Positions 14,501 through 62,147 of a stretch of DNA of 64,000 nucleotides are shown in pieces. Numbering within the stretch: position 1 is the first letter of the stretch; every line of letters starts with the position of its first letter. Position numbers and translations under genes: made by a program. This stretch comes from an uncultured virus (IMG/VR IMGVR_UViG_3300042691_022988) (taxonomy: Duplodnaviria > Heunggongvirae > Uroviricota > Caudoviricetes): the IMG/VR virus record IMGVR_UViG_3300042691_022988; one strand, given 5' to 3'. Under the pieces are notes generated by a model that worked only from the letters and a program-made list of their open reading frames with translations, searched no databases and was not told the origin of the DNA.

Positions 14501-15210
14501 TTCTCTACCTCTTTCTCTACAATTTTAGCCACATCGCCTGCGGCCTTCTTGTTTATTGAGTTAAGTTCATTCTTGAGAGCCTTGGTATCAGACGCATATT
14601 TCTTGAGAGTCTTCTCGCGAGACTTTTTGATCTGACGAGTAACCGCAAGCACCGCCCCTTCTGGGGTTAAACGAGCAAACAACGACAATGCTTGAATAGC
14701 TTGACCAAAGTCGGTGGCCAATTCAGCAATGCTCTCAACCAACTCAACCGCACGTTGGGTCTCTCCATTAGCCGAGAATCGCTTGATCAGGACTTGAGCA
14801 AGGGTAATTCTAAATGCCGTAGGCATATTTTTACTTCCTGTAAGGGCAATCTTCTCTGCCTCATCTATACCAACTGAATCTATAATTCCGTTAGCAGCAG
14901 ATACTGATAAATCATTAGGAAGAACCTCATAGTTAACTCTATCCTCAGAGAAAGCAGCCTTTACATTATCCGGGATATCTTCGTTTTCTTCTACAGACTT
15001 AACGAATCCACGTTTTTTAGTAGGACCCGGTTTAGGCCTCGCTGCCTCTACTGGACTTTCACCCTTCAAGGCATTTGTATTTATAGTTCCGTCGGCGATG
15101 AATTTCTCCAGACCTCCATTATAGAGCATCTCCATATAGTCCTCGAAGGACATTTCCTTGGGAGCTGCATTTGGGGATGTTTTTATGGTTACCTTACAGG
15201 GTGCTGCCAT
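11524..15210 (-). CDS. large virion/ejection protein with polyvalent-protein-like C-terminal region
   Basis: 1228 aa, helical; ARGTFNY..G, VIPFVNV..N and hydrophobic segments resemble C-termini of phage large polyvalent proteins. Confidence 0.65.
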   Translation of the reverse strand: MAAPCKVTIKTSPNAAPKEMSFEDYMEMLYNGGLEKFIADGTINTNALKGESPVEAARPKPGPTKKRGFVKSVEENEDIPDNVKAAFSEDRVNYEVLPNDLSVSAANGIIDSVGIDEAEKIALTGSKNMPTAFRITLAQVLIKRFSANGETQRAVELVESIAELATDFGQAIQALSLFARLTPEGAVLAVTRQIKKSREKTLKKYASDTKALKNELNSINKKAAGDVAKIVEKEVEKTTATVRTVKRPAAYGAKNKLVTKERYEKAKQALKGKMFSAVAPPPELVEVAMFHIEAGARNFADFAKRMAEDFGDKVSDYLQSSYDAATDRLNAEAAQKEIDKNVKKFGTMMSQQLPKQVDRRSKLEKLQEMADAIDAATGNDAFNQILNDYKAILAQEQLDRDAVKAQKKLDKLVAYMATEAGVKKGLKEMNVKISDLIKKHYSEVEATKQDLVDKFVNEAGLTGAEADVLADKVQTEFEKIVKERKESAIKRYMPRKGEPSKKKEAFEKLVEASNLGAVTEAMVNDALAESLGIEGLSAEDAKNIQDLANKVQEAETEREELRAVQDLLTYQENMKGFSWFDATQAVWMASILSGWKTQTINAIANLYNTGALFITASAQKNTSRRMLAKGLAVGWKRGFFEGLDTLKTGYSPIRDKSETPTILERTKFKGGKFNPLNYAKYVRRLMTAVDVVAFEGLRQMRSFQMAYKKAAAENEGMSRKELRDKTLEILNRNDERKDKVIKQAEKERKEREAELNQQLTNGEITKEEFKKQMDFARVDERFRIHELLEEGRPEEIMQEAKDYAARGTFNYQPTGLLGMLSTYMNSASRDFPPLKFVIPFVNVISNVANETLNYTPIGFARGVREGGTISGQKPQRDWNAQHRTELMIKATMGTALMATVYLLTKLKDDDDEPILEITTNGFGDYKKNKELAETGWQQYSLRVKNPVTGEYSPWMSYKTTPFMVGFSFIGALNDAENYKGEDISENGYAKAGFASTALMRSFLDQTFLSSGEDFLSAMFDERDENLMDNVGESLKKTAGAILLPNFYTQTAQKISEIMDIPQKDIKDTYLGRMLRDVPVARDKYNNMINALGDEVTYDTDLMFSTEKGKPEDKLWKLVIDKKQTIGTPTAPETYVDKNNQEVQVTDEQAYKFAKIRGGYIKKALEENYDELSKMDNKKFSKYLQALKTEATNLAKTSFTVSEEGLDKKIKKELRSQKSQIKDILKKDE

Positions 15211-15701
15211 TAGAACAGTTTTTCTTCGAGAAGTAACAACTTGAATTTATCCTTACCATCTACATCTTCGAGCAGGTTCAGCTTGTCGCTGTATTCCGCC
15301 ACAGACTTGGTCTGAATAAGACGGAACTGCTGCAAGAAGTCAAACGTGCAAAGATCCATGTTGAAAAGTTTTTTTGACGTTTCCTCGTAAGCCTCATAAA
15401 GATCGTACTCGATCTTGTAAGCCTCTTCCAGAACCTCAAGCAGGGTTGAGAATTCTATGCGTGGCTTGGGTACAGTTGGAAGCGGAACGGTGATGTTCCA
15501 GTCTACCAAGTACTTCTCAATCTTTGCGGCGTGTTCAAGTTCATCCTGAGACTCGGCAGCAAAGAAGGCCGCAGCCTTGAAGTATCCAACACCCTGACAC
15601 CAATTGCTGGCAGCACGATAGAAATAAAATGCGTCCATCTCGTCAAGATGACGTGGAGCTAATAGGTCTACTACACCTTTGTCTAAGCTATGAGGTTTCA
15701 T
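15210..15701 (-). CDS. ferritin (non-haem FtnA-like)
   Basis: EMDAFYFY, WC..GY..AAAFF..ESQDELEHA, D.CTFDFLQ ferritin motifs. Confidence 0.85.
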   Translation of the reverse strand: MKPHSLDKGVVDLLAPRHLDEMDAFYFYRAASNWCQGVGYFKAAAFFAAESQDELEHAAKIEKYLVDWNITVPLPTVPKPRIEFSTLLEVLEEAYKIEYDLYEAYEETSKKLFNMDLCTFDFLQQFRLIQTKSVAEYSDKLNLLEDVDGKDKFKLLLLEEKLF

Positions 15702-15707
15702 GTTTTA

Positions 15708-18700
15708 TTACGGACAACCGTCGGTTTTATCTGTTATCACACCTGCGTTTTGCAGCTGCTTGTTAATCTCTTCAATATTTCTGTAAATATACTTCAACTT
15801 AGGGTCAGACTCCAAAATCTGTGTATTAGCGGCCTTGGATTCTCTGTCTCCTTTGTAGTAATTGTCGATGATGTTTGCAATTGTAGCCTTGATCCCTGTA
15901 GGTTTTGCCACCGGAGCCTTTGGCGTTACACCGAACTCATCCTTGATGATTTCATCGAACTGCTCTTTCTGCTTTGGAGTCAACTCGCTATACCAATCCT
16001 GGCTGGTTATGTTGTCCTCTACAGCAGTCTGGGCATCAACTCCGTCAGCAATCGCCTCATCAACGGAATCCATAGAGTCTTCCATCAGGCGTTGAACCTC
16101 AGCTGAGGTACGCTTGACCATTGATGGCTGACCCTTAGCCATTTTGCTCTTTACATAGTCTATTTCATCCTGAACAAAACTTCTATCGTTGTCCGTCAAT
16201 CTCAAAAGACTTATCCCATTGATATATTCTAATGGAAACTGACGTTCGGTGAGTTGTGTATATGGCGCAGCCTTTCCAGATATAGCACCTGTATCAACAA
16301 ACTCTTGTAGTACTTTGATATAATTTTCTGGCGTGTACACATCTACACCACCCATATCATTAGCTACAAAGTATTTTTTGCGATCAATTGCTTCATCGAT
16401 TCTTTTATCCAAAGCATTACGCTTGACCATTGATGGTTGGCCTTGTTTGGAAACAATCTTTGGAAGTCTACCCTCAGACAAGTCCTTAGCAATCTCAGCA
16501 AGCTCTTGGGCCGTGAATTTGCGTGGGTTCTTACCGTCCGAGCCAGTCTTGATGTTCTCAAACGTGTCAAGATCGAAAAGCGATTCCTGACCAGCAAGCT
16601 CCCCAAACTTCAACGCCACATCGCGGTACTCCCTTGGGATTACGATGTTCAAGTCGTATGACACCTCCGGACGGTCTGGGAACTTGTAAAGTCCGATCTT
16701 AAAGATGTCGCTGGAAATATTCCCTTCGTTATCCTTCAAGAACTCAAACAATCCTTCTGCGCTAACGTCATCCTGAGCCACGTTGATTGAACCAGCAGGA
16801 ACCACAAGACCTCCGTCCTCATATGTACTACCGTCGAGGTTAAGTGTTGCGCCGTCCTCGCTTGTAGCAGCCTTGATTCGGTCAACGGTTCCCGATACAT
16901 TATCGGAGAACTGTTTTACACCGCGAGGAATGCCAATAGAAGCCTGACCTTTTTTACCGAACAACAATCCACGAACACGGGCAGCATCTGCCTGCATTGA
17001 CTTGGGAAGAACCTTCGTCATCATGTCGTACTCCTCAGGAGTAATGTCGCGCTTGAACTCGTTGTCTTCGTACTTATTCTCAGTAACCTGACCACTCATG
17101 TACACGCTGTCAGCGAGCTGGTATTCCTTGCTTGAGAACTTCTTCTTGGATGACATAATATCACGCACCTCAGAGGCAATAGACTCAAGCTCCTGCTTGG
17201 CCTGTTCGCTCTGCTGACTTGGGAATGGAATACGCTCCATGCCCTTCTCAGCGTTGGATGTGAATGACTCTGGCTTCTCTTTAGTTGGCTTGAGCGGCAC
17301 GAGGGCGTCTGCACGGAACTCTGGGAGTTCACCGGCTGGCTTGCCTGTTCTGCTGTACGACCACTCTCCGACAATCATCTCATAGCCGTTCTTCTTGGCC
17401 ATGTCTGCGATTTCACGCTTCACAGCCTCGCCACGGAATGGAGTGCCTTGTGGAATTTTAGCCTCCGCCTTCTCGCCATATCCAAGTGGATCGGAGTCGA
17501 TCGGATAAACCTTAGCCTTAGGAACACGCACCGCATACTTCTCTCCACCTACCATTCTCTCGCCATCCTCTGGTCGAGTGTAGTAAGACGCTACTCCATA
17601 CTGAAGCCCCTTCTCTTCCCTTGCGGTTCTGAGTGATGTGTACTTCGTGCTGTCAATGCCCTTTCTGATCGATGCTTCCGGCGCCGATGATACGTGGAAG
17701 AAGATGTAATCGTTCTTGTCCTCTGTCAGACCTGACTCGTAGTAGGTGTCCTTTACAAGATTGTTTCCGCGCTTGATGCCTTTGGATGGCTGAACTGTTG
17801 GAACAGTTTCTTCATCTATGTCTACCTCATCTATAGTCTCACCCTGCTCAGAATCTTTGATTGTATAATTAAATGAGTTGCCTGAGTTTTTCCACTTTTC
17901 GTATGTTTTGTTTGCGGCATCTTCATAACTTATGCCTTGGATTGGTTTGGTAACCCCAAGTTTTTTATACAAGTTTTTCTCGAAATACCACAATATAGCC
18001 TGGATATCAGCTATGGTGACATCTATACCAGATCGCTTTAATTTCTTTTGAGTATCAATAAATGCATCATACATGAATTGACGATCCTTAGCTCCAAAAG
18101 GAGCATCGTTCAATTCTACATATAATTTCTTGTAAAGAGTATTAGCTGCCTTTTCAGCTGGAGTACCTTTCTTGTATCCCTTATCTTCATAAGTATCGTG
18201 ATCTTGAACGATCCTGGCTAACACCTCTTCTTCTGAAGCATCTTTTAATCCAGCAATTTCGCGATATCTATCTATACCTAACGCTTCTCCTTTTTTGTTG
18301 TAACCTCTGGTTATTTGAGGAATAAGAGTGCCTCGATATCTATTGAATGTTCGAGACCACCATCTGTCAAGGGTTGGATACTGTTCCATGCCGCTTAGGT
18401 TGGCGTAGAACATCCCGAGTTTAGGACCAAAAATTGAAGCCGCCAAAGGAACTTTGAAAGAAGCCGGCCACTTTGTGTCAAGTTTCTCAAGCCCCTGTGC
18501 TTTTCTCTGCTGATTTAATTCAGATATTGATTCAATGGTCAAGAGTTCTTTTTTAATGGCTTGAACATCTCCATTGTATTTGTCAAGCAAATCCTGGATG
18601 TTCCTGAAGTTGACCATATAAGATTCCGCACGTTGGGCCTTAGCTGTAGTTGGCATCTTGCCGGTCTCTTTGTAATTCTTATATGCCAAACTAGCTTGCT

Positions 18701-21700
18701 GGAAATTTTGCATTACCTCAGTTCCATCTGAAGTTATAGCAACCAACATTGTAAAGAGATCTCTTGCGTTTTGATCATCTTTCATTTCTGGGAAAATAGC
18801 AGCCATTGCATCAAGTCCTTTTTGGAACTTTTCACCATACCAACCTTTTCCGCTATTTTCACCAAATGCTTCTACAAAGAATCTAACTTCATCGGCCATG
18901 AAAGACGATATCGCTTTTAAAGCCTTTTCAGATCTATCTTCTCTGGATATGATTCCATATAACTCTCTTGATCTTTTTTCAAGAGCTTCCCCAATTTTTC
19001 TAGTAGTATTGACACCCTTTTTCAGTCCATACTTAACAAGGCTTTCCTTGCCTTTGGCGATGCTAACCGCTCTTTTTTGAGCGCCAACTTTATTCTGGAA
19101 CTCACCCACATTTTCCTTCCCAACAACATCACTAATCTTACCGCCTTTGTTCAACGCCTTTGACAACTGATCAGCCAAACGCTTCACCTCCATTCGTGGA
19201 GAGTTTACCGCGATAGGCTTCAGTCCAAGCATCTTGGCCAGCTTGTTCATGAACTCGATGAACTTCTCACGGAAGCTAGGCTCGAATGTATCAATGTCAA
19301 TATCCCCGGCAGCTACACGAGCCATAGTTTCAACTACAGTTTCTTCTTCGATTGCAGATGGACCTTGCTCTTGGTAGTATCCAGAAGAAGCGACAGCCTC
19401 AGCAGCCTCAGCTACTCCAGCGTTCTTAACCGCCTCTGCTTTCAGACCATCAACAATGGCCCTGTAAAGTTTCGGGTTAGTGTTGCGAATGATGTTTACA
19501 ACTGGGTGGATACCCTCGTGGAATGCAATCGTCTTACCTTCTGCGCCTTTGATTCTCTCCTTGTTGAGGTAAATCTTACCAGTGTTATTATCTACTAAGA
19601 ATATACCGTCGGCACTACCCTCGAAGTTACGTTGCTTACCCTTTTCCTCAAACGATTTCGGATCGAGAACCTCAACTCCAATGTTGGCCTCTCCAAGGAA
19701 GCTGGCCACCTTCTCAGCAGCAATCTCCCCTTCCGATGTTTCAAACATCTTAGCCAGACGCTCACGACGGCTAGGCTTAACAACTGGTTCAACGGTGACT
19801 TCGGGAGTAACTTCAGGGGCTGTCTCTTGGTCTTTGAGAGATTGTAATTTGTTAAAAAGTTTTGCAGCGTCGGGAGAAATTCGTTTAGATTTTTCAAAAC
19901 GGACTTTTGCTCCTTTTTGCTCAATCTGTTTTATTAATTCAGTTGCTACTCCTTTTCTTGAAAACTCAGGGGCTACCGCAAGATGCTGTACACCTCCATC
20001 ACTTTGTAATTCTATAACGCCAACTTTATTTCCATTACCATCAATAGCGCTAATACTTTCCTTATCCCCTTTATAAGTTAGCGGCGATTCAACATCTAAT
20101 TCCCCCCTTTGTTTTGCTCTATTGTACGACTTACCAACGCCTATTGTGTCTAATATCCTAGTTACATAAGATGATTTACCTTCCCTGCTTTCTTTATTAG
20201 AAGCAAAGGCGTCACCCTCTCCTTCGTAATTCCAATTACTTTTAATCTTTTCGGTTGGAGTTACTTCTTCTTGTGCTTGAAGTACTCCACCTGCTTCAGG
20301 CGCTTCTGCGCTTGGGACTTCGACAGGTTGGGCTTGGATAGGTTCTTGCCCTTCTCGGACTTGACTTGGTATCCCTTGGATGTTTTCTTGATCACGTGCT
20401 TCTGTTTTTGTTTCAGCAGTTCCTTCGAGTGTACGAATGTCCTGCTCTAATTGTTTTTGAACACTTGCGATTTGACCGCGAGTCATCATCCGATTTGGAT
20501 CAGACTTCATGTCGGTCAACTCCTTGTACTTCTTGTATAGATAATTTGACGCAGCCTGCTTTACAGACTGGGCCACAGGTAATCCCTGTTCGGTTCTTTC
20601 CACCGCGAATGGAACCATTGGCTTCATGTCGCTAAGGAATGTATCAAGTTCGCTTACACCCTTTTCCTCACGCTGCTTCTGGAGTTCTACGATTTCCTGG
20701 TCGCGTTCGTCTTCCTGAACCGGGAACTCTTCGCCCTCCATAGATTTATTGAAATCGTCCTCAATGGCCTTGAGCTTTGCATCCTTAGCCTTCTGTTTTT
20801 CCTGCTCTAATTGAATGGAGAACATTTCGTTCACCTCGTCTTCGAGCCTCTTGATCTCAGCGTCCTTTCTCTCATCAGGAATACGAAGCTCTTTCATCCG
20901 CTCCTGCTCCTTCTTCATTACATCAGCCTGTTGAGCCAAAGCAAATGCGTGGTCTTGCTCCTCTTTAGACATTTGATTCCATCCAGAATGTGCCTTCATC
21001 GCATCAAGTATCTCCCCAGCATCTTCAACTTCCTTCTTTCCTTCCGGGCTTACTTTGCGGTCTGCGTCTGTGCCTTGAGCAAAAAATTTATCTCTATTCT
21101 CAACAATCTGACGCATCACTTCTTCCTGAACTGGACTCTTAGGTGTCGCCTTCGAAAACATAGAACTAGCACCAGATATGCTACCAGCAGCAATAAAACT
21201 TCCAATCGCAGCATCAACGTAGTTATCTACATTGAATGTATCGTTAAAATATGTTTTTTGGCTTCTATTGTTGATTATCTCTTTCGCTGTATCCTCGGCT
21301 AAATTTTGCGGAAGTTCTTCTGCAAAAAATTCTTTTCCACCACTTTTAACGATGTTCGAACCAAGAGTTAATGCGTTTTCTGGTAACGCTGAAATAGCAT
21401 TTTTAAAAGCCAATTTAGCAGCTTCCTTGGCTGGAAGCCCAGACTTCATTGCTTGCATCGTTCCAGAAACAACACCTTTTTTAAACCCTACAGCATTCAG
21501 ATATCCTATATCCGGCATAATCGTTTCAAACAAGGCCATTTGTGCTGCCAAATAAGTACCTGTTATTGCGGCGTCCTGTGGAGACATTCCACCTTCTAAT
21601 GCCTCTTGGTAATAATTAGATTCTTGGGTTAGAAAAGCCGTGGCGTATGTAGCCGCTCTTTGCCCTAACTTAGTGGCTCCTCCAGTGGCTCCTCCAAGCG

Positions 21701-22982
21701 CAAATATTCCCATAGTACCAATCGCATTTCCACCAACAACAGCAGCTCTTGCAACAAATGGTAGGTCAGACATTCTCGCTCCTTGTGGGAGTGGAGCGGC
21801 TAAATCTACATCTAAGACACTCTTAGCGCCGGAAATAGAATCGTAAAACTCATCGCTCCAATCGTAATCTTTATCACCCATCAAGTCTCCCATGACTTTT
21901 GGAAACTGATACATATTTAAGATGCCATCCATGGCAGCATCCCCTACCGCTGTAAAAAACGCTTTTGTCTTACCCTCCCCTGCCTGTATTTCTTCAAATG
22001 CCTTTCTCTTGTTTTCTTCACTTTGCATTTCCTGGCCGGCTATTTTACCATACTGCAAGTTGTTTTGATCATATGTAGCGGAAATACCTTTAAGTGAGTT
22101 TGAGATTTTCTCGTACTCCTTATACATATAATCTAACTTGCTTCGGTCAGATGGGGTGACGGCTGTTTTTTCAAGATTATCAATATTTGAACCTAGTAAC
22201 TGTAAACGCTCATAATTAGCGTCGTAAACTTTATTAATAGCTTCAGTTTCTACTTGTCTTAAAAAACTTTCATCAACAGCGGTCCTATCTTCTTTTGACT
22301 TAGCTTTTAGTACCTTGTACTTCTCATTAGTATAAGTGCCTTTTTCAGGGTCAATTTGCTGTAAGTAGTTTAGATAGTCAGCCGTAATGTCAGAAGCGTA
22401 CTCCTTGGATTCAAAATACGTAGGCATTTCGAACACTTCTTTTGATGCAACCTCTCTGTAAAAATCTTTATCAGCCTTTTGTTTGTTTTCTCTTTCGGCT
22501 ATTTTTTGAGGGGTAGCCATTGAAATGGATTCTCTTTTTCTCATTTCAACCGGGCTAACTGCTGGTTTTACAGCTGTTACATCTTGTGGCTCAGTTACAT
22601 CTACTTCAAAGTATTTCGATGGAACTGTTTTTTTCTTTTCCTGAACAGGCTCTTTATCTTGTTGTGAGGTCTTAAATGGAACCTGAGTAGATGAATTGAT
22701 TATTTTTTCAGTTACCTTCTGGCCAAAACTCGGCGCAGAAGGCTTTCCAGGCTGCTGAACAGGCTGTCCTGAGCCTTGCGTAGTACCCCCTTTTTTTTTT
22801 GAAGGATCAAAATACGCCGAATGAAACGCCGTGGCATCCAAATTGGTTAACTTGTTGTCAACCATAAATTTATGGATTTCAGCAGATTTCTTTGGGTCCG
22901 AATACGCTTTAACGAAAGAAGCCTCATCCATTTGGGTGAGGTTATTTTCTTTCATGAATTTATAAATTGGGTTACTGTCCAT
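15708..22982 (-). CDS. large polyvalent (probably ejected) protein: GNAT, zincin HExxH, glycosylase-like, ART-like and SAM-lyase-like domains
   Basis: LAVAPEFSRKGVAT; FHEGIH..EETVVE; GWY..GPKLGMFYANL..TLDRWW; FFHVS..YYT; IGLY..SYDL..GQESLFDL. Confidence 0.75.
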   Translation of the reverse strand: MDSNPIYKFMKENNLTQMDEASFVKAYSDPKKSAEIHKFMVDNKLTNLDATAFHSAYFDPSKKKGGTTQGSGQPVQQPGKPSAPSFGQKVTEKIINSSTQVPFKTSQQDKEPVQEKKKTVPSKYFEVDVTEPQDVTAVKPAVSPVEMRKRESISMATPQKIAERENKQKADKDFYREVASKEVFEMPTYFESKEYASDITADYLNYLQQIDPEKGTYTNEKYKVLKAKSKEDRTAVDESFLRQVETEAINKVYDANYERLQLLGSNIDNLEKTAVTPSDRSKLDYMYKEYEKISNSLKGISATYDQNNLQYGKIAGQEMQSEENKRKAFEEIQAGEGKTKAFFTAVGDAAMDGILNMYQFPKVMGDLMGDKDYDWSDEFYDSISGAKSVLDVDLAAPLPQGARMSDLPFVARAAVVGGNAIGTMGIFALGGATGGATKLGQRAATYATAFLTQESNYYQEALEGGMSPQDAAITGTYLAAQMALFETIMPDIGYLNAVGFKKGVVSGTMQAMKSGLPAKEAAKLAFKNAISALPENALTLGSNIVKSGGKEFFAEELPQNLAEDTAKEIINNRSQKTYFNDTFNVDNYVDAAIGSFIAAGSISGASSMFSKATPKSPVQEEVMRQIVENRDKFFAQGTDADRKVSPEGKKEVEDAGEILDAMKAHSGWNQMSKEEQDHAFALAQQADVMKKEQERMKELRIPDERKDAEIKRLEDEVNEMFSIQLEQEKQKAKDAKLKAIEDDFNKSMEGEEFPVQEDERDQEIVELQKQREEKGVSELDTFLSDMKPMVPFAVERTEQGLPVAQSVKQAASNYLYKKYKELTDMKSDPNRMMTRGQIASVQKQLEQDIRTLEGTAETKTEARDQENIQGIPSQVREGQEPIQAQPVEVPSAEAPEAGGVLQAQEEVTPTEKIKSNWNYEGEGDAFASNKESREGKSSYVTRILDTIGVGKSYNRAKQRGELDVESPLTYKGDKESISAIDGNGNKVGVIELQSDGGVQHLAVAPEFSRKGVATELIKQIEQKGAKVRFEKSKRISPDAAKLFNKLQSLKDQETAPEVTPEVTVEPVVKPSRRERLAKMFETSEGEIAAEKVASFLGEANIGVEVLDPKSFEEKGKQRNFEGSADGIFLVDNNTGKIYLNKERIKGAEGKTIAFHEGIHPVVNIIRNTNPKLYRAIVDGLKAEAVKNAGVAEAAEAVASSGYYQEQGPSAIEEETVVETMARVAAGDIDIDTFEPSFREKFIEFMNKLAKMLGLKPIAVNSPRMEVKRLADQLSKALNKGGKISDVVGKENVGEFQNKVGAQKRAVSIAKGKESLVKYGLKKGVNTTRKIGEALEKRSRELYGIISREDRSEKALKAISSFMADEVRFFVEAFGENSGKGWYGEKFQKGLDAMAAIFPEMKDDQNARDLFTMLVAITSDGTEVMQNFQQASLAYKNYKETGKMPTTAKAQRAESYMVNFRNIQDLLDKYNGDVQAIKKELLTIESISELNQQRKAQGLEKLDTKWPASFKVPLAASIFGPKLGMFYANLSGMEQYPTLDRWWSRTFNRYRGTLIPQITRGYNKKGEALGIDRYREIAGLKDASEEEVLARIVQDHDTYEDKGYKKGTPAEKAANTLYKKLYVELNDAPFGAKDRQFMYDAFIDTQKKLKRSGIDVTIADIQAILWYFEKNLYKKLGVTKPIQGISYEDAANKTYEKWKNSGNSFNYTIKDSEQGETIDEVDIDEETVPTVQPSKGIKRGNNLVKDTYYESGLTEDKNDYIFFHVSSAPEASIRKGIDSTKYTSLRTAREEKGLQYGVASYYTRPEDGERMVGGEKYAVRVPKAKVYPIDSDPLGYGEKAEAKIPQGTPFRGEAVKREIADMAKKNGYEMIVGEWSYSRTGKPAGELPEFRADALVPLKPTKEKPESFTSNAEKGMERIPFPSQQSEQAKQELESIASEVRDIMSSKKKFSSKEYQLADSVYMSGQVTENKYEDNEFKRDITPEEYDMMTKVLPKSMQADAARVRGLLFGKKGQASIGIPRGVKQFSDNVSGTVDRIKAATSEDGATLNLDGSTYEDGGLVVPAGSINVAQDDVSAEGLFEFLKDNEGNISSDIFKIGLYKFPDRPEVSYDLNIVIPREYRDVALKFGELAGQESLFDLDTFENIKTGSDGKNPRKFTAQELAEIAKDLSEGRLPKIVSKQGQPSMVKRNALDKRIDEAIDRKKYFVANDMGGVDVYTPENYIKVLQEFVDTGAISGKAAPYTQLTERQFPLEYINGISLLRLTDNDRSFVQDEIDYVKSKMAKGQPSMVKRTSAEVQRLMEDSMDSVDEAIADGVDAQTAVEDNITSQDWYSELTPKQKEQFDEIIKDEFGVTPKAPVAKPTGIKATIANIIDNYYKGDRESKAANTQILESDPKLKYIYRNIEEINKQLQNAGVITDKTDGCP

Positions 22983-44853: not shown

Positions 44854-45045
44854 ATGTTTATCGTTTCAATCATACTCGTTATATCGTGCCTTACATTTAT
44901 GATTAAGAATTCCATATATGGCTGTGGTAAAAGATGTTACAAGACTCGAAAGGAGGCCGAGGAATACTGTGATTACGACCAGCAAGTCTATATGTGCTGG
45001 GAGTGTGAGACATGGCACATAAAAAATAATGGAGAAAACCCTTGA
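44854..45045 (+). CDS. small Zn-finger-like protein with N-terminal hydrophobic segment
   Basis: CGKRCY..YMCWECETWH; TAAATTTG upstream. Confidence 0.55.
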   Translation: MFIVSIILVISCLTFMIKNSIYGCGKRCYKTRKEAEEYCDYDQQVYMCWECETWHIKNNGENP

Positions 45046-45064
45046 CAACCTCGCGTGGTTGTTT

Positions 45065-45189
45065 TATGTTTGCCAAATATTCCAAGCGTAGTTTGTTATA
45101 GAGCAACAGCAAACTAGGCTTCGGATGCCTCGGTAAAGTAGAACTTTTACCAAATTAGGCCCGCGAAGTTGCTCTTGCGGGCTTTTTTT
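45065..45189 (+). promoter_or_regulatory. promoter plus structured attenuator leader of the replication operon
   Basis: TATGTTTG at 45065; hairpins; terminator GCCCGCGA/TTGCGGGC-T7 just before the ATG at 45195. Confidence 0.7.
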
Positions 45190-45194
45190 ATTTT

Positions 45195-45851
45195 ATGAAT
45201 ACAGGACAAATTGTTAAAACCAGGAACGTGCCTTTCGCAATGGTTCCTACTGAATTTCTAAGGGACAAGTCAATAAGCCTAAAGGCTAAAGGTCTTTTGT
45301 CTTTTCTGCTATCTCTACCTCCCGATTGGGTGATATACAAAAGTAAGTTGACAGACTATTTCTTAGATGGTAAAGACTCTATATCAAGCGCTTGGGATGA
45401 ACTAGAAGTGCTGGGATATATACACTCAGTTAGGATGATTGGAAGCGATGGCCTGTCTCGCGGATTTAATTATGTGGTTTATTACGAACCAACGGAAATC
45501 GGATTACCGGAAAGCGGATTAACGGATTGCGGAAAACCCGATATCCGAAAACCCGCCACTACATATATAGATAATACAAAGAAAGAAATAACATATAAAT
45601 ATACTTTCGAGCAGTTTTGGATTGCTTACGACAAGAAGGTGGACAAGAAACAAACTCTAGCTGTTTGGAACAAACTATCCGCTGATGACAGAATCCTAGC
45701 AGTTGAAGGCATGGATAACCACAAATCGGGTCGCGAACGCAAATACTGGAAGGATCCTGTTCGATATCTTCGCGATAGAAGATGGGAAGACGAAACACAA
45801 ACGAAAACAATAAAACAAACACCTATTCAAGATGATAACAACACATGGTAA
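45195..45851 (+). CDS. phage replication initiator (N-terminal wHTH)
   Basis: LRDKSISLKAKGLLSFLLS..W; FEQFWIAYDKKVDKK..W..DPVRYL..RRWEDE. Confidence 0.8.
   Translation: MNTGQIVKTRNVPFAMVPTEFLRDKSISLKAKGLLSFLLSLPPDWVIYKSKLTDYFLDGKDSISSAWDELEVLGYIHSVRMIGSDGLSRGFNYVVYYEPTEIGLPESGLTDCGKPDIRKPATTYIDNTKKEITYKYTFEQFWIAYDKKVDKKQTLAVWNKLSADDRILAVEGMDNHKSGRERKYWKDPVRYLRDRRWEDETQTKTIKQTPIQDDNNTW
45493..45552 (+). repeat. four 15-bp iteron-like repeats (probable origin)
   Basis: CGGAAATCGGATTAC/CGGAAAGCGGATTAA/CGGATTGCGGAAAAC/CCGATATCCGAAAAC followed by an AT-rich tract. Confidence 0.7.
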
Positions 45852-56285: not shown

Positions 56286-56451
56286 GGAGCTTTTTTTTAC
56301 AAATATACACGGATGCACATAATAATCAAAAAAAATCATAATACCAGGATGGTTGGGAAAATCGTTGACCAACTAGGGTTGGGGTCACCCCCCCCGGCAG
56401 GCGGTTACGCGACCCGACCCGAAGTCGATTTGGCAACAGGGGTGGGGTACT

Positions 56452-56636
56452 TAACACCCTGATTTGCAGCCTGTTATGCCACCAAGGCCAACTGCTTGAC
56501 CCTCAGGTAGATATAGCACACAGCACACAGCCCGATGCGCGGCAACTTGTCTCCGCTCGGTGGAGAAAGTAGACTAACCCATTGATAATCAACCCGTTTG
56601 CATAAACGTCACAACGTGTTAAGTATCAGCACGTTA
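56452..56636. repeat. four 25-bp imperfect palindromes YAAC-N4-TGA-N3-TCA-N4-GTTA
   Basis: copies start at 56452, 56489, 56575 and 56612. Confidence 0.7.
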
Positions 56637-57170
56637 CACCATGCATGACCATGCCCGCTAGATACTGCAAGCACCCCGCCCGATGCCCTAGAAACCACAC
56701 GGCCTGAACGCCTGAAAACCCCGCCATTCCTGAGAACCATGCAAGGCTCGGAAATTCTGCTTGGGGTAACCTAGATTGAGTTGGCCTAATGTGCGGGCGT
56801 GCACGAGTGCTTTATGTGCTCTCTCTCCTGTCTCTTGGTGTGTGTGTGTTATTACATAGGGTGGATTGTGGGTTATTTGCCCGCGCATGGCCTGTCCTTT
56901 GCCTGCTGTTTGGCTGTCCTGTTTTACCCTGTCTGATGTCTCCTGATTGCTCACCTGTAGACCGCTTCCCAGGACGCATACGCTTTTTGTTGATTTTCGC
57001 TCTCAAACCCGCGCTGTGCCTGTCCTAGAGAACATCTGATGCTGTTTTTGGGTTTTGGCCTGTTTCTACCCCTGTTCACCCCCTCCCCTAGCTGTGAGAA
57101 ACGCCCATTTCTGACTATTTCCCGCCGGCCTGAATCCCTTGTCCTACGCGGCTTTCAGCACCATTGCTTA

Positions 57171-57178
57171 CAAAGATA
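57171..57178 (-). promoter_or_regulatory. -7 promoter element TATCTTTG (leftward)
   Basis: consensus match; no convincing ORF downstream. Confidence 0.4.
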
Positions 57179-57411
57179 GTCAATGTTTTCGCGGCTTCCA
57201 AGAAATAACGTAAAAAAGATTAAAATTCGTCGATGATAAATTATAATTCGTCGACACTTTTTGTCAGTTAGGCGAATTTATTGCCTTTGGCTGTAATTCA
57301 GTTATTGGATAGACGTGGCGCGGGTTTCAAAAAAGCAAATCTCTGAACACCGCATAAACACAGGTCGTTTAGAAGGTCTTTAAAACTTGATTTAGAACTT
57401 AGATATCCCCT

Positions 57412-57419
57412 TATCTTTG
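57412..57419 (+). promoter_or_regulatory. early promoter -7 element TATCTTTG
   Basis: consensus match, with TTG ~22 nt upstream, at the head of the plus-strand early region. Confidence 0.7.
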
Positions 57420-57424
57420 CCACC

Positions 57425-57810
57425 GTTCAACGGAACAACGGAGTGCTCAAATCACCCGCAATAGTAATACCTCGTGAGACGTGTGAAATTGAAAGATAGC
57501 TAGCAGTTCTGATTCCCTCTCTGCAACAATCAAAAGAGGGTGAGCGCTTAGGCAACGAAGCGACGGGAGTTCGCCCGCAAATAGCCGACAACATTCGGCA
57601 ACCTGTCAGTAGCAAGGTTAGGAGCTACAGGTTAAACGAACGAGAACCCTGCAAATAGCAGGGGACTACAAAAGCCGAGTCTTGGGACTATACGCGGTGA
57701 CCCCTAACGGGAGAGCGGATGAGTACAGCGGTAAACAAGTAGCACAGCTATGCGTATGTGACAACGTATGGCTGTGTGTATCAATACTACAGCGCAACGG
57801 CGCAAATTCA
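57425..57810 (+). ncRNA. large structured RNA, unclassified
   Basis: at least 8 hairpins in ~390 nt; no plus-strand ORF of 60 aa or more; G-U pairs favour the plus strand. Confidence 0.6.
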
Positions 57811-57820
57811 ATACAACTAT

Positions 57821-57898
57821 AGCAACGACGCATGGTGCGGCAAGCCTAGATGACTGAGGTCGCTAGTCTCGCAGGGGGTTCGAGTCCCCCCGTTGTTC
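57821..57898 (+). ncRNA. tRNA-like element without a canonical anticodon arm
   Basis: acceptor AGCAACG/CGTTGTT; T-arm GGGGG-TTCGAGT-CCCCC; mini D-arm CGCA-TGG-TGCG. Confidence 0.7.
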
Positions 57899-57919
57899 TA
57901 ACACTTAAAACACAACATC

Positions 57920-58399
57920 ATGAACATGACAAAAGGCACAGCCTTCGAAGTTGAAATCTTCAAGCAAATGAACTTATCACAGGAAGTAATTGAGCAGCAC
58001 ATATACGACTATGCGCCAATCATGAAACTGATACCGCTCACAACTGATGAAATCAGGGAACAGGGTAGAGACTACAACCCTAGAGAATGGGACAGGGTCA
58101 TTGACAGGATGCTCAACTACAACGGTATCAAGTGGTTCAAACGTGACAGGAACGAGAGTTCAAACGGCTACGATGAGTACTTCGCGGTATTCAGCAACAG
58201 CGCAGGCGTCAAGGTAATCAATCACGTGTCATACAGCGCGTCCATGACCAACACTCCGTGGGTCGAGGTTGCTATCGACGAGGACAACATCCTGCACTAC
58301 AACCGCCGCTCAATTCGCTTCAAGCGCAACGACGAGGCTAGGGACTACCTAGCAGAGCAAAGCAAGACAAGCGGTCGCATCTACACGACAATCTTCTGA
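57920..58399 (+). CDS. early hypothetical protein
   Basis: 159-aa ORF with A/C-rich leader. Confidence 0.7.
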   Translation: MNMTKGTAFEVEIFKQMNLSQEVIEQHIYDYAPIMKLIPLTTDEIREQGRDYNPREWDRVIDRMLNYNGIKWFKRDRNESSNGYDEYFAVFSNSAGVKVINHVSYSASMTNTPWVEVAIDEDNILHYNRRSIRFKRNDEARDYLAEQSKTSGRIYTTIF

Positions 58400-58451
58400 G
58401 GTTAACTGATGAGACTTCAATAGTCGAAACTGCCTACGGGCAGTCTTAACC
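58400..58451 (+). ncRNA. type I hammerhead ribozyme
   Basis: GGTTAA-CTGATGA-GACT(tcaat)AGTC-GAAA-CTGCC(tacg)GGCAG-TC-TTAACC. Confidence 0.92.
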
Positions 58452-58460
58452 AATAGCAAT

Positions 58461-58622
58461 ATGAAAGCAATCCAATCCCTCGCATCATTCGCAATGGTGC
58501 TGTTCTTTTTCCTGAGCACGATAGTCGCGCCAATGGCCGGCATTTGGTTCTTACTGCCGCTGACTATCCTGTGCCTGAACCTGAGCCTGAACCTATTCGT
58601 TCAAATTCATAATTCCAAGTAA
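58461..58622 (+). CDS. 53-aa hydrophobic membrane protein
   Basis: hand-translated MKAIQSLASFAMVLFFFLS... Confidence 0.55.
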   Translation: MKAIQSLASFAMVLFFFLSTIVAPMAGIWFLLPLTILCLNLSLNLFVQIHNSK

Positions 58623-58834: not shown

Positions 58835-59161
58835 ATGACAACACAAGAATTCATTCAGCAAATGGGCAAGATGCCTGTTGCAAACTACAACGACGGCACA
58901 ATTCACTTCGAGAATGGCCTCGAAATCAGCCACAGCGTTAAGCTAGCAGAATGGCAAGGCGACTTGCCTCTGCAAATGGTCGTGCGGGTATCTTTCCAAG
59001 GCGACTACGTTATGACGTGGGGCGCTGAGACTGACGAAGACAATCGACAGCTAGTGTATATGTGGCGCACGTTGAAAAGCCGCGCACAGGAGCGTTCAAA
59101 GGACATACAGCAGTACAACTCCCGTACAGGTTACGAACTGCTCATGAAGGGGCTGCAATAG
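58835..59161 (+). CDS. early hypothetical protein
   Basis: ORF in operon. Confidence 0.65.
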   Translation: MTTQEFIQQMGKMPVANYNDGTIHFENGLEISHSVKLAEWQGDLPLQMVVRVSFQGDYVMTWGAETDEDNRQLVYMWRTLKSRAQERSKDIQQYNSRTGYELLMKGLQ

Positions 59162-59219
59162 GTAAACTGATGAGGCTTCAATAGCCGAAACCACGGGGCT
59201 TGCCCCTGTGGTCTTTACC
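59161..59219 (+). ncRNA. type I hammerhead ribozyme
   Basis: GGTAAA-CTGATGA-GGCT(tcaat)AGCC-GAAA-CCACGGGG(cttg)CCCCTGTGG-TC-TTTACC. Confidence 0.92.
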
Positions 59220-59231
59220 AATACTAACGAT

Positions 59232-59516
59232 ATGAAAGCAACAATCGAAATCACGTCGACCTACGGGTTCGACCACTATTGGACACTAGTGTGTTCAACA
59301 CCTAAGACAACCAAGAGTTTCTACCTAGGACAGGACTGCAAATTCTGCGAACGAATACTAGGTATGAATACTGCGTGGGTTGCCCGCGAGATTGGCACGA
59401 ACAGGCTCGACACCGAGGCAGGCCGCGAGAAACTAGCCAAGTACATCTGCTCTACGCTAGGCATCAACGGACGTACAATGAAACAATATCAATCATGGTC
59501 GCTCTGCGCCCAATAA
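59232..59516 (+). CDS. early hypothetical protein
   Basis: start MKATIEIT downstream of the hammerhead. Confidence 0.65.
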   Translation: MKATIEITSTYGFDHYWTLVCSTPKTTKSFYLGQDCKFCERILGMNTAWVAREIGTNRLDTEAGREKLAKYICSTLGINGRTMKQYQSWSLCAQ

Positions 59517-61533: not shown

Positions 61534-61715
61534 AGCACACACTTCGAATTGAGCCACTCCTTTGGCTCGCCTACATCGCTGCAATCATTACAGCAGCCGT
61601 ACTCATGAGTTCATGCAGTACCTCACGTCGAAACAACTACCAAGACCATCTCCGATCGACCCCGACTGAAAACTGGGTGCGCCACGATAATGGTGGATGT
61701 GGTTGGCACAACTAA
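61530..61715 (+). CDS. small lipoprotein
   Basis: hydrophobic segment ending in lipobox-like LMSSC. Confidence 0.6.
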   Translation: MKHTLRIEPLLWLAYIAAIITAAVLMSSCSTSRRNNYQDHLRSTPTENWVRHDNGGCGWHN

Positions 61716-61759
61716 CATGGCTATGGAGCAAGCAGGGGTTCGAGTCCCCTGCCATGTTC
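61714..61759 (+). ncRNA. tRNA-like acceptor/T-arm minihelix
   Basis: AACATGGC/GCCATGTT stem; AGGGG-TTCGAGT-CCCCT T-arm; 12-nt linker containing TGG. Confidence 0.65.
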
Positions 61760-61790
61760 TCTGCTCACAGCAGGCTCGTAATGCAACGAG

Positions 61791-61827
61791 AGGAGGGGAG
61801 CGGCAACGGCTGCACCCTCCTTATTTT
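61791..61827 (+). terminator. probable terminator
   Basis: AGGAGGG...CCCTCCT then TATTTT; new TACTTTTG element at 61863. Confidence 0.5.
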
Positions 61828-61892
61828 AACATCTCTTAACAAGTGTAATTTAAACTTTAATATACTTTTGTACCACTTAAAACAACAGCAAC

Positions 61893-62147
61893 ATGACGCA
61901 AGAGCAAATCAAACGCAGGCTTTTATTCATCATCGATGACGCGAGCCGTTTACTTCACCACCTAGAGTCAGGCAAGGACATGAGCGAATTCACGGGCTTT
62001 GCTGACGATGGGTATACACACCTGTCAAACATCCAAATCGCAGCAGACCTAGAGGACACGGAGTCTGACGTGTGGAAGAACGTACACTCCATGGATGCAG
62101 AAACCTTAGAACTTGTAACACTTAATTTTTCAAAAAGCAAAATATGA
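61893..62147 (+). CDS. early hypothetical protein
   Basis: ORF after the promoter element. Confidence 0.6.
   Translation: MTQEQIKRRLLFIIDDASRLLHHLESGKDMSEFTGFADDGYTHLSNIQIAADLEDTESDVWKNVHSMDAETLELVTLNFSKSKI

What the first reader, a model, noticed from the sequence alone, without database searches (positions are those of the whole stretch)
57821..57898. tRNA mimic with intact acceptor and T arms but no decoding arm
78 nt with a 7-bp acceptor stem, a 5-bp T-stem with UUCGAGU loop, and a shrunken D-arm keeping the UGG that normally docks on the T-loop. The anticodon arm is replaced by CTAG-A-TGAC-(TGAG)-GTCG-CTAG with a 4-nt loop, and no CCA is encoded. Inference: a processing signal that defines the large RNA's 3' end, or a decoy for tRNA-elbow-binding or tRNA-targeting defence proteins (compare YrlA and mascRNA).
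Basis: partly seen in the sequence, partly recalled or inferred. Interest (0 to 1): 0.7.

Follow-up and report, generated by a model that had tools for sequence, protein, structure and literature searches.

The report
Anticodon-less tRNA mimic punctuating phage operon
A freshwater phage carries a conserved tRNA-shaped RNA without a decoding loop just ahead of the first gene of an operon, and shorter relatives of it swap places with self-cleaving hammerhead ribozymes between genes, so it most likely tells host tRNA-trimming enzymes where to cut the phage transcript.

Summary
Window 57821-57898 (+) folds into a cloverleaf-like RNA: a 7-bp acceptor stem, a small D-like hairpin with GG, a canonical T arm, and a long closed hairpin with a 4-nt loop instead of an anticodon arm. 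No CCA is encoded. ARAGORN and Rfam call nothing.

It is not a decaying pseudogene. Eight distinct variants from related phage contigs keep the fold, and 8 of 29 pairs show compensatory changes.

It is the long form of a wider, apparently virus-only family. "Mini" elements (acceptor, 11-12-nt UGG-GCAAG linker, T arm) fold in 32 of 34 pattern matches in viral contigs and in 0 of 33 in cellular genomes.

In six related phages the operon starts with one long form, followed by 1-3 minis and 0-2 hammerhead cores, all sense-strand and intergenic. After one orthologous gene, the window has a hammerhead where two relatives have a mini.

Best reading (about 0.55): a cis-acting tRNA-like processing signal for host RNase P and/or RNase Z. 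It would detach a roughly 400-nt structured leader RNA and give the mRNA a short leader. No RNA ends were observed. Decoy and non-cleaving structural roles remain possible.

The parts
57412..57419 (+). Putative promoter -7 box (TATCTTTG) that would start the leader transcript near 57425
   Evidence: A match to the recalled Bacteroidota-type motif TAnnTTTG lies at the same distance (-381 to -409 from the element; -341 for the closest of three boxes in L178) in 7 of 7 relatives that have enough upstream sequence. In the window the motif is not enriched overall: 69 matches against 58.5 +/- 8.1 expected. The assignment is therefore an inference from conservation only.
57425..57820 (+).
   Evidence: No ORF longer than 62 aa lies here. 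Five type-A homologues align, and RNAalifold predicts 85 pairs, 16 of them with compensatory changes. Two relatives carry a different 'type B' leader between the same conserved 5' start and the same tRNA-like element. Rfam has no match.
57821..57898 (+). Long-form tRNA-like element (the finding): acceptor 57821-57827 / 57891-57897, D-like hairpin 57829-57839, long arm 57840-57872 with loop UGAG 57855-57858, T arm 57874-57890, discriminator-position C 57898
   Evidence: Sequence; fold; 8 homologues with covariation; no ARAGORN or Rfam call.
57899..57919 (+). 21-nt A/U-rich spacer between the element and the ATG of the first gene; the proposed mature mRNA leader
   Evidence: The CTAA(A)C.TTAA motif is conserved after all 8 long forms. 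It resembles the stretch between the second promoter-like box and the ATG at 61893.
57920..58399 (+). First gene of the operon (159 aa, no family match)
   Evidence: ORF; no PHROG or Pfam match; 82-83% identical homologues in two relatives.
58400..58451 (+). Type I hammerhead ribozyme candidate directly after the stop codon of gene 1. The predicted cut after GUC (58445|58446) leaves a 15-nt leader before the ATG at 58461
   Evidence: Complete core. Rfam RAGATH-1-hammerhead scores 23.0 bits, E 1.3, below the gathering score of 56.3. The core pattern has 2 matches in the window against 0.01 expected. The same slot holds a mini tRNA-like element in two relatives.
59161..59219 (+). Second type I hammerhead candidate, overlapping the TAG stop of the upstream ORF. 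The predicted cut at 59213|59214 leaves an 18-nt leader before the ATG at 59232
   Evidence: (31.1 bits, E 0.1, below gathering). Copies in G004, G005 and G006 show compensating differences in stems I, II and III.
61714..61759 (+). Mini tRNA-like element (acceptor, CUAUGGAGCAAG linker, 6-bp T stem, C). The TAA stop of the upstream ORF (61713-61715) overlaps its first two bases
   Evidence: The covariance model R1 gives 69.4 bits, E 2e-18, the only full-length match in the window with filters off.
61760..61828 (+). Conserved hairpins and a terminator-like GC hairpin with a U run after the mini element; the probable end of the transcription unit
   Evidence: Read. The same sequence follows this type of mini in L007, L019, L029, L030, L034 and L044.
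61863..61870 (+). Second promoter-like box (TACTTTTG), 23 nt before the ATG at 61893
   Evidence: It is one of only three + strand TAnnTTTG matches between 57400 and 64000.

Best explanation
The element is a cis-acting tRNA-like processing signal, a phage counterpart of organellar 't-elements' and of mascRNA.

Proposed mechanism:
- A promoter near 57412 drives a transcript that begins with a structured leader RNA of about 400 nt. The transcript then runs through the tRNA-like element into a string of small genes.
- The element keeps exactly what the tRNA end-processing enzymes read: a 12-bp acceptor/T-arm stack, and a T-loop/GG 'elbow'. It has lost the decoding loop.
- Host RNase P would cut at its 5' edge, which would define the 3' end of the leader RNA. 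RNase Z, or a similar 3' endonuclease, would cut after the discriminator-position C. That would give the first mRNA a short, unstructured 21-nt leader.
- Further down the operon the same job is done either by shorter mini versions of the element or by self-cleaving hammerheads. The polycistronic transcript would thus be cut into units with leaders of 13-23 nt.

What is shown: the structure, its conservation and covariation, its strand, its placement, and its exchange with hammerheads.

What is inferred: that it is cleaved at all, by which enzyme, and that the cut on the 3' side is the one that matters.
For: 1. The fold is real and selected. In 8 distinct long forms, 96.6% of cells are paired and 8 of 29 pairs have compensatory change (5 in the long arm, 3 in the T stem). 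Slid controls give 32-53%. RNAalifold finds the same structure.

2. The most conserved bases are those that form the tRNA elbow: the T loop UUCGAGU is invariant and the GG of the D-like loop is invariant. RNase P, RNase Z and the CCA-adding enzyme all recognise the elbow (PMC4810234, passages read).

3. The fold is read from the sense RNA strand. Invariant or near-invariant G.U pairs (columns 6-80 in 8 of 8 sequences, columns 35-46 in 7 of 8) would be C.A mismatches on the other strand.

4. The mini family behaves the same way. In 22 sequences, 95.4% of cells are paired and 13 of 15 pairs have compensatory change, against 45-54% in slid controls. 32 of 34 pattern matches in viral contigs fold, against 0 of 33 in cellular genomes. 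Model R1 scores true copies at 52.6-73.7 bits, against at most 27.6 bits for the cellular matches.

5. Placement is consistent. All copies lie on the gene strand and between genes. The upstream ORF's stop codon begins at position -1 of the acceptor in 16 of 23 instances. A TAA or TAG triplet sits there in 24 of 32. For the AAACAGG-type minis the next ATG lies 14-24 nt after the acceptor in 6 of 6 instances, excluding one variant (L096) at 32 nt.

6. The elements exchange with ribozymes. Each of six related phages has one long form, then 1-3 minis and 0-2 hammerhead cores within about 4 kb. After the orthologous 159-161-aa gene, the window has a hammerhead where G002 and G003 have a mini. Homology runs up to the stop codon and then stops.

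7. Leader lengths match. The hammerhead cut sites leave leaders of 15 and 18 nt. A cut after C57898 would leave 21 nt. That leader resembles the stretch between the promoter-like box and the ATG at 61893.

8. Precedents exist. Plant mitochondrial t-elements carrying the same GGTTCRANYCC motif direct RNase Z/P cleavage that forms mRNA ends (PMC1920247, passages read). RNase P processes phage M3 RNA, the P1/P7 C4 RNA and operon mRNAs (PMC11143913, passages read). Phage hammerheads flanking genes have been proposed to process long transcripts (PMC3088659, passages read).

9. No phage RNase P, RNase Z, CCA-adding enzyme or RNA ligase was found among 39 ORFs. Host enzymes would therefore have to act.
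Against: - No RNA 5' or 3' ends were seen. The public runs that could be laid are contigs, the 'RNA' ones are probably DNA, and they hold relatives.
- If RNase P cut the minis at the canonical site, 16 of 23 upstream ORFs would lose their stop codon. That argues against a 5' cut there, or for a different logic.
- The acceptor of the long form never varies (7 of 7 pairs invariant), so its pairing has no covariation support.
- In the fold of the whole leader plus element, the minimum-free-energy and centroid structures pair the acceptor 3' strand with a 5' leader segment instead. However, such a complementary run is not above chance: 296 of 2000 shuffles match it.
- No CCA is encoded, which weakens recognition by bacterial RNase P (established knowledge, recalled).
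- The isolated element folds only modestly better than shuffles (z = -1.73).
- The members of alignment A1 were picked by their ability to pair, which inflates the percentage paired. The covariation counts and the cellular-genome control are less affected.
- The host is unknown. The promoter assignment rests on a recalled motif that is not enriched in the window.
Confidence: 0.55

Rival explanations
1. A non-cleaved structural module. The closed tRNA-like fold, like the closed stem I of the hammerheads, would act as a compact insulator. It would bring the stop codon and the next start close together for re-initiation, block 3' exonucleases, or stop the structured leader from pairing with the start region. 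No host tRNA enzyme would cut it.
For: - Stop codons overlap the first bases of the acceptor in 16 of 23 instances, and starts follow within 14-24 nt in the AAACAGG type.
- A 5' cut would destroy those stop codons.
- The element closes on itself, so its two ends lie side by side.
Against: - It does not explain why the elbow-forming bases (T loop, GG) are the most conserved. A plain hairpin would do for insulation.
- The slot is shared with hammerheads that keep a full catalytic core in 5 of 5 copies, which points to cutting as the shared function.
Confidence: 0.17
2. A released small RNA with a function in trans: a decoy or sponge for a protein that binds the tRNA elbow or acceptor (a defence nuclease, a nucleotidyltransferase toxin, or a modification enzyme). 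Alternatively, a CCA-tailed mascRNA-like RNA. Processing would be only the way to make it.
For: - The long form keeps an invariant acceptor and an extra conserved arm that the processing enzymes do not need.
- It lies in what looks like an early or host-takeover operon of small unknown genes.
- mascRNA-menRNA is the only Rfam model that touches this element family, and only below threshold.
Against: - There is no anticodon loop, so it cannot bait anticodon nucleases (recalled class).
- The minis have freely varying acceptor stems, which fits a shape signal better than a specific bait.
- A decoy role does not predict the stop/start placement or the exchange with hammerheads.
- No abundant small RNA was observed, because no usable RNA data exist.
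Confidence: 0.13
3. A DNA-level recombination linker. The conserved intergenic modules would serve mainly as crossover points that shuffle gene cassettes between related phages, like the promoter/stem-loop cassettes of T4-type phages (recalled). The RNA fold would be secondary.
For: - Modules sit at mosaic junctions. The genes downstream of the slot after gene 1 differ between the window, G002 and G003.
- The same mini plus leader plus gene occurs behind different upstream genes in G002 and G005.
Against: - Compensatory changes and strand-specific G.U pairs show selection on an RNA fold.
- Recombination at conserved modules is a likely side effect rather than an alternative.
Confidence: 0.08
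4. A decaying tRNA pseudogene, or a tRNA interrupted by an insertion in the anticodon loop.
For: It has tRNA-like acceptor, T arm and D-loop GG. The base of the long arm could be read as a 5-bp anticodon stem.
Against: - Eight variants keep the whole arm, with 5 compensatory pairs and a fixed 4-nt loop (U/C)GAG.
- There are no frame-like indels or decay.
- ARAGORN finds nothing.
- A family of even shorter forms is equally conserved.
Confidence: 0.03

Closest known systems
Plant mitochondrial t-elements (tRNA-like structures at mRNA ends; Forner et al. 2007, PMC1920247, passages read)
   Same: Both are non-decoding tRNA-like folds with the GGTTCRANYCC T-arm motif, embedded in longer transcripts next to coding regions. 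Both are proposed, and in the mitochondrial cases partly shown, to direct RNase Z and/or RNase P cuts that create mRNA 5' and 3' ends.
   Different: The setting is an organelle, not a virus of bacteria, and there is no sequence relationship. The phage family has a defined architecture: long form first, then minis with a UGG-GCAAG linker. It alternates with hammerhead ribozymes. Cleavage is not shown here.
mascRNA / MEN-beta tRNA-like elements of vertebrate lncRNAs (Rfam RF01684)
   Same: Both are tRNA-like elements at the 3' end of a long structured non-coding RNA, with a reduced D region, a non-decoding anticodon-side arm and no encoded CCA. In the vertebrate case RNase P defines the 3' end of the long RNA (recalled; tRNA mimicry by lncRNAs is mentioned in PMC4810234).
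   Different: RF01684 matches relatives only below threshold (22.4-25.9 bits against 42.5). The host domain differs. Here the element is followed by an mRNA rather than a terminator.
Mitochondrial tRNA punctuation of polycistronic transcripts (recalled; the search listing returned mitochondrial and organellar papers only in its 15 listed rows)
   Same: In both, genes are separated by tRNA-shaped units, and stop codons abut or overlap the 5' edge of the unit.
   Different: Mitochondria use real, decoding tRNAs and complete truncated stop codons by polyadenylation. Nothing of that kind is known or shown for this phage.
Phage hammerhead ribozymes flanking genes (Perreault et al. 2011, PMC3088659, passages read)
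   Same: They share the intergenic, sense-strand placement in phage operons and the same proposed purpose of cutting long transcripts. In this phage group they share the very same slots as the tRNA-like elements.
   Different: Hammerheads are self-cleaving. The tRNA-like element has no known catalytic core and would need host enzymes.
tRNA-like domain of tmRNA
   Same: Both have an acceptor stem plus T arm with a reduced D region and no anticodon arm.
   Different: In tmRNA the acceptor is formed by the RNA's own 5' and 3' ends, and the RNA carries CCA, a G3.U70 pair and a tag reading frame (recalled). Here the element is local, has C3-G70 and no CCA, and ARAGORN finds no tmRNA.
RNase P substrates of phages P1/P7 (C4 antisense RNA) and phi80 (M3 RNA), and E. 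coli operon mRNAs (listed in PMC11143913, passage read)
   Same: They are precedents that bacterial RNase P matures phage non-tRNA RNAs and cuts polycistronic mRNAs.
   Different: Those substrates are single cases. They are not described there as a repeated acceptor/T-arm module family.

Membership tests
Canonical (decoding) tRNA | Cloverleaf with a 5-bp anticodon stem and a 7-nt anticodon loop, recognised by tRNA finders | tested here: not met
   The loop is 4 nt, (U/C)GAG, on a 13-pair arm. ARAGORN finds 0 genes. No Rfam tRNA match even at E<=10.
Canonical (decoding) tRNA | 7-bp acceptor stem stacked on a 5-bp T stem, with a T loop UUCRANY and a D-loop GG | tested here: met
   acceptor 7 bp, T stem 5 bp, loop UUCGAGU invariant, GG invariant.
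tRNA-like processing elements (t-elements / mascRNA type) | Non-decoding tRNA-like fold with a T-arm motif, embedded in a longer transcript at an RNA boundary | tested here: met
   the GGTTCGAGTCC motif is present, and the element lies between the leader RNA and the first gene. The minis lie between genes.
tRNA-like processing elements (t-elements / mascRNA type) | RNA ends coincide with the element's borders; cleavage by RNase P and/or RNase Z; non-templated C/CCA addition | not testable with these tools
   Only contigs of runs that are probably DNA could be laid.
mascRNA-menRNA (Rfam RF01684) | Score at or above the family's gathering threshold (42.5 bits) | tested here: not met
   The best scores are 25.9, 24.8, 23.5 and 22.4 bits, on relatives and on the window's mini. 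There is no match on the focal copy itself.
tmRNA | tRNA-like domain formed by the 5' and 3' ends, a tag reading frame, and detection by ARAGORN or Rfam | tested here: not met
   ARAGORN reports 0 tmRNA and Rfam has no match. A possible pairing of the leader's 5' segment with the acceptor 3' strand is not above chance.
tRNA pseudogene | Decay without conservation of structure among homologues | tested here: not met
   8 variants are 96.6% paired, with 8 compensatory pairs.
Hammerhead ribozyme (the neighbouring modules) | Conserved catalytic core between three helices, with a cleavage triplet | tested here: met
   Core, stems and GUC are present in 2 window copies and 3 copies in relatives, with compensating stem differences.
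Hammerhead ribozyme (the neighbouring modules) | Rfam gathering score; self-cleavage in vitro | tested here: inconclusive
   RAGATH-1-hammerhead scores 23.0-31.1 bits against a gathering score of 56.3. Cleavage is not testable here.
YrlA / Y RNA | tRNA-like module joined to a Ro-binding helix, encoded near rsr | tested here: not met
   No Rfam match of any Y RNA or YrlA model. No Ro-like protein among 39 ORFs scanned with Pfam. The arm is a closed hairpin.

The most novel reading that the evidence does not exclude
A group of freshwater phages runs a modular RNA-punctuation system. Anticodon-less tRNA mimics, cut by host RNase P/Z, and self-cleaving hammerheads are interchangeable cassettes. 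They chop an early polycistronic transcript into units with short standard leaders. The long form at the head of the operon also releases a structured non-coding RNA of about 400 nt, and perhaps a mascRNA-like small RNA. This would be the first tRNA-punctuation system in a virus of bacteria. It would also be independent evidence that the role of phage hammerheads is simple transcript cutting.
Probability: 0.45. Interest if true: 0.8.

Novelty: new variant of a known kind. Interest (0 to 1): 0.66.

Why it matters
- It gives a testable answer to an old open question: what do hammerhead ribozymes do in phage operons? A shape that recruits host tRNA-trimming enzymes can replace a hammerhead in the same slot. 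The shared function is therefore most simply a cut in the transcript.
- It would extend tRNA-like mRNA punctuation from organelles and vertebrate lncRNAs to bacterial viruses.
- It defines two new RNA families, long and mini, that are absent from Rfam 15 and are not called by tRNA finders.
- It flags a conserved structured leader RNA of about 400 nt whose 3' end the element probably sets.
- It is also a natural counterpart of the tRNA- and ribozyme-based insulators that synthetic biologists use to separate cistrons (recalled).

Tried and rejected
- RNA evidence. The look-up of sequencing runs listed 24 runs, of which 20 hold the stretch or a part of it. The three that were RNA-labelled and held it (X18, X19, X20) were laid together with one DNA run. 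All are contigs. X18 and X19 are 'probably DNA', hold relatives at 90-99% likeness, and give no starts or ends. X20 covers only fragments. Nothing can be said about transcription or processing.
- Cultured phages. A 2.2-kb query found no match. The 111-nt element found no match at E<=1. A mini plus its leader gave 22 records, 0 of which cover 80% or more of the query. These are T-arm-only matches, partly to annotated tRNAs.
- Nearest held virus record, G001. It ends at window position 57515, before the element.
- Metagenome scan for more long forms. It returned 11 loci with 6 distinct sequences, none new.
- Cellular genomes. 33 pattern matches were found and none folds as a mini.
- Earlier findings of this scan.
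- tmRNA-like closure, or a switch between the leader's 5' segment GGAACAACGG and the acceptor 3' strand. It is present in the fold and conserved over 8-10 nt. However, 296 of 2000 mononucleotide shuffles give a run as long. It is kept only as an unexplained note.
- Promoter motif enrichment. TAnnTTTG is not enriched in the window.
- Literature. Searches found no paper describing tRNA-like punctuation or acceptor/T-arm modules in phage operons. The library holds open-access papers and bioRxiv only, so subscription papers and the supplements of the Breaker-lab motif surveys were not seen.
Full report
**1. What is there**

Window 57821-57898 (+) reads as follows:
- acceptor 5' strand AGCAACG
- a single A
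- a D-like hairpin CGCA-UGG-UGCG
- a long irregular hairpin at 57840-57872, closed by the loop UGAG
- a single A
- a T arm GGGGG-UUCGAGU-CCCCC
- acceptor 3' strand CGUUGUU, then C, followed by UAAC rather than CCA

RNAfold returns exactly this cloverleaf as both minimum-free-energy and centroid structure (-30.3 kcal/mol). The z-score is only -1.73, and 12 of 200 shuffles fold as well.

ARAGORN finds no tRNA or tmRNA anywhere in the 64-kb window. Rfam finds nothing at gathering thresholds, and no tRNA-type match even at E<=10 around the element.

The only amendment is that the replaced anticodon arm is longer than stated, at 13 pairs.

**2. Setting**

- The window is most of a tailed phage genome of about 66 kb. 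It encodes portal, large terminase, primase/helicase, a subtilase and NinG. A close relative is a complete 66,429-bp record with terminal repeats.
- Runs that hold the stretch are labelled freshwater or aquatic metagenomes.
- The element lies in a 1.5-kb ORF-poor gap between divergent gene blocks. It sits 21 nt upstream of the ATG of the first of many small + strand genes.
- About 400 nt upstream is a conserved TATCTTTG box. This fits the Bacteroidota-type -7 promoter motif that I recall, and a box occupies the same place in 7 of 7 relatives with enough sequence. The motif is not enriched in the window overall, so the promoter is an inference.
- Between that box and the element lies a conserved, highly structured, non-coding leader. 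Five type-A homologues align. RNAalifold predicts 85 pairs, 16 of them with compensatory changes.
- Two relatives carry an unrelated type-B leader between the same 5' start and the same tRNA-like element.

**3. Homologues of the element**

Pattern scans and a search with the neighbouring protein gave eight distinct variants of the long form in related viral contigs. A metagenome scan added no new variant.

On their alignment, 96.6% of cells pair in the proposed structure, against 32-53% when partners are slid by 1-3 columns. 8 of 29 pairs have changes on both sides: five in the long arm and three in the T stem. 0 of 500 shuffles reach the covariation score. RNAalifold predicts the same fold without being told it.

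Invariant features (pairs):
- the T loop
- the GG of the D-like loop
- the whole acceptor, so the acceptor pairing has no covariation support in the long form

G.U pairs that are conserved on this strand would be C.A on the other strand. The selected molecule is therefore the sense RNA. This rules out a decaying pseudogene.

**4. A wider family**

A second T-arm motif in the window, at 61737, belongs to a shorter element at 61714-61759. It consists of a 7-bp acceptor, a 12-nt linker CUAUGGAGCAAG, a 6-bp T stem with the same kind of loop, the acceptor 3' strand, and then CU.

Scans of viral contigs with the linker plus T-loop pattern found many such minis:
- With the looser pattern, 13 of 122 matches had a perfect 6-bp T stem, and all 13 also had at least 6 of 7 acceptor pairs. 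The remaining matches looked like coding sequence.
- With the tighter pattern, 32 of 34 matches fold, giving 23 distinct sequences.
- The same tight pattern in one genome for each of 185,579 bacterial and archaeal species gave 33 matches, and none folds.

A covariance model built from 22 minis scores true copies at 52.6-73.7 bits and the cellular matches at no more than 27.6 bits.

On the 22-sequence alignment, 95.4% of cells pair and 13 of 15 pairs have compensatory changes. These include one pair of a 2-bp mini-hairpin around UGG. Slid controls give 45-54%.

Two cautions apply. I chose these 22 for their pairing, so the percentage paired is inflated. Several also come from closely related phages.

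ARAGORN calls none of the minis.

**5. Placement**

All copies are on the gene strand and between genes.
- In 16 of 23 instances the upstream ORF's stop codon starts one base before the acceptor, so its last two bases are the first two of the stem. A further instance fits if its register is moved by one base.
- In the larger set, 24 of 32 have TAA or TAG at that place.
- For the AAACAGG-type minis the next ATG follows 14-24 nt after the acceptor in 6 of 6 instances, with one variant at 32 nt.
- The minis of the window's type are instead followed by two conserved small hairpins and a terminator-like hairpin.

**6. Hammerheads in the same slots**

Two complete type I hammerhead cores lie in the same operon:
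- The first, at 58400-58451, starts directly after the stop codon of gene 1.
- The second, at 59161-59219, overlaps the stop of its upstream ORF.

The core pattern has 2 matches in the window against 0.01 expected. Rfam's RAGATH-1-hammerhead model scores them below its threshold, at 23.0 and 31.1 bits against 56.3. Their predicted cuts leave leaders of 15 and 18 nt. Three further copies in relatives differ in all three stems in a compensating way.

Maps of six related phages show one long form at the head of the operon, followed within about 4 kb by:

| Phage | Order of modules after the long form |
|---|---|
| window | HH, HH, mini |
| G004 | mini, HH, mini |
| G005 | mini, mini, HH, mini |
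| G006 | HH, mini, mini |
| G003 | mini, mini (plus a weak hammerhead match further on) |
| G002 (contig end) | mini, mini |

The clearest case is the slot after the orthologous 159-161-aa gene. The coding sequences align up to the stop codon. The window then continues with a hammerhead, whereas G002 and G003 continue with a mini. The genes beyond the slot differ as well, so the modules sit at mosaic junctions.

**7. Interpretation**

The parts that are kept are a 12-13-bp acceptor/T stack, a canonical T loop and a GG that can dock on it. These are the parts that RNase P, RNase Z and the CCA-adding enzyme read (PMC4810234, passages read). The decoding part is gone.

Three things point to a cis-acting cleavage signal: the position at RNA boundaries, the exchange with self-cleaving ribozymes, and the similar leader lengths that each kind of module would leave (13-23 nt).

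The closest precedent is the plant mitochondrial t-element. It carries the same T-arm motif and directs RNase Z/P cuts that form mRNA ends (PMC1920247, passages read).

A 3' cut after C57898 would free an mRNA whose leader resembles the stretch between the second promoter-like box and the ATG at 61893.

I favour the 3' cut as the general one, for two reasons. The hammerheads cut on their 3' side. A canonical RNase P cut at the minis would also strip the stop codon from the upstream ORF.

From memory only: U at -1 suits bacterial RNase P, and U after the discriminator suits RNase Z on CCA-less precursors. Both bases are common here.

No phage enzyme of these kinds was found among 39 ORFs.

**8. 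What is not shown**

- No RNA end, no cleavage and no host were observed.
- The public-run attempt gave only contigs, probably DNA, of relatives.
- The whole-leader fold prefers to pair the acceptor 3' strand with a conserved 5' leader segment. This could mean a switch or a tmRNA-like closure. However, a complementary run of that length arises in 296 of 2000 shuffles, so I do not build on it.
- Why the long form keeps an invariant acceptor and an extra arm is unexplained. This leaves room for a trans-acting role of a released small RNA.

**9. Novelty**

- Rfam 15 has no family for either form. Only sub-threshold touches of mascRNA-menRNA were seen.
- No cultured phage record holds either form.
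- Seven literature searches found no description of tRNA-like punctuation in phages. The library is open-access only, and I did not see supplements of the large motif surveys.
- The idea that phage hammerheads process long transcripts is already in print (PMC3088659, passages read; review PMC6765202, passages read).

I therefore rate this a new variant of a known kind: a tRNA-like processing signal in a new host class, with a new architecture and a new relationship to ribozymes. Interest is 0.66.

Noticed in passing
window 58400-58451 and 59161-59219 (+): Two complete type I hammerhead ribozyme candidates lie between small genes. Each abuts or overlaps the upstream stop codon and ends 15-18 nt before the next ATG. 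Both score below Rfam's gathering threshold for RAGATH-1-hammerhead.
   Followed up: partly
window 57425-57820 (+): A conserved, highly structured non-coding leader of about 400 nt (85 predicted pairs, 16 compensatory among 5 phages) with no Rfam match. Two relatives have an unrelated leader of similar length between the same conserved 5' start and the same tRNA-like element.
   Followed up: partly
window 56380-57410, both strands: A further 1 kb without credible ORFs, partly conserved in relatives. It includes a pyrimidine-rich stretch around 56800-57100 (AT skew down to -0.52). A conserved TATCTTTG box on the - strand at 57171-57178 could drive a long antisense or leader RNA towards the - strand genes.
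   Followed up: no
window 57432-57441 versus 57889-57899: The conserved 5' leader segment GGAACAACGG is complementary to the acceptor 3' strand, and it replaces the local acceptor pairing in the fold of the whole leader. A run of this length is not above chance (296 of 2000 shuffles).
   Followed up: yes
window 61760-61870 (+): After the mini element come two small conserved hairpins, a terminator-like GC hairpin with a U run, and then a second promoter-like box. The operon therefore seems to be two transcription units.
   Followed up: partly
L013, L025, L005/L024 (viral contigs): Other odd T-arm-bearing elements that ARAGORN does not call. One has two T arms in a nested arrangement (L013). 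One is a long hairpin capped by a T loop (L025). One has a T arm followed by an acceptor-like strand ending in CCA (L005/L024).
   Followed up: no
window 45020-45196 (+): A weak Rfam match to Arrc14 sRNA (38.8 bits, E 0.009, gathering score 99), just upstream of the + strand replication genes. It is probably chance.
   Followed up: no
L234 and L238: Two long-form copies, one identical to the window's and one identical to G004's, lie about 65.7 kb apart on one 93.9-kb metagenome contig. This fits a concatemeric or wrapped assembly of a genome of about 66 kb.
   Followed up: no
window 15708-22982 (-) and 15210-15701 (-): A 2424-aa protein whose only match is a GNAT acetyltransferase segment, next to a ferritin-like protein, within the structural gene block.
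   Followed up: no
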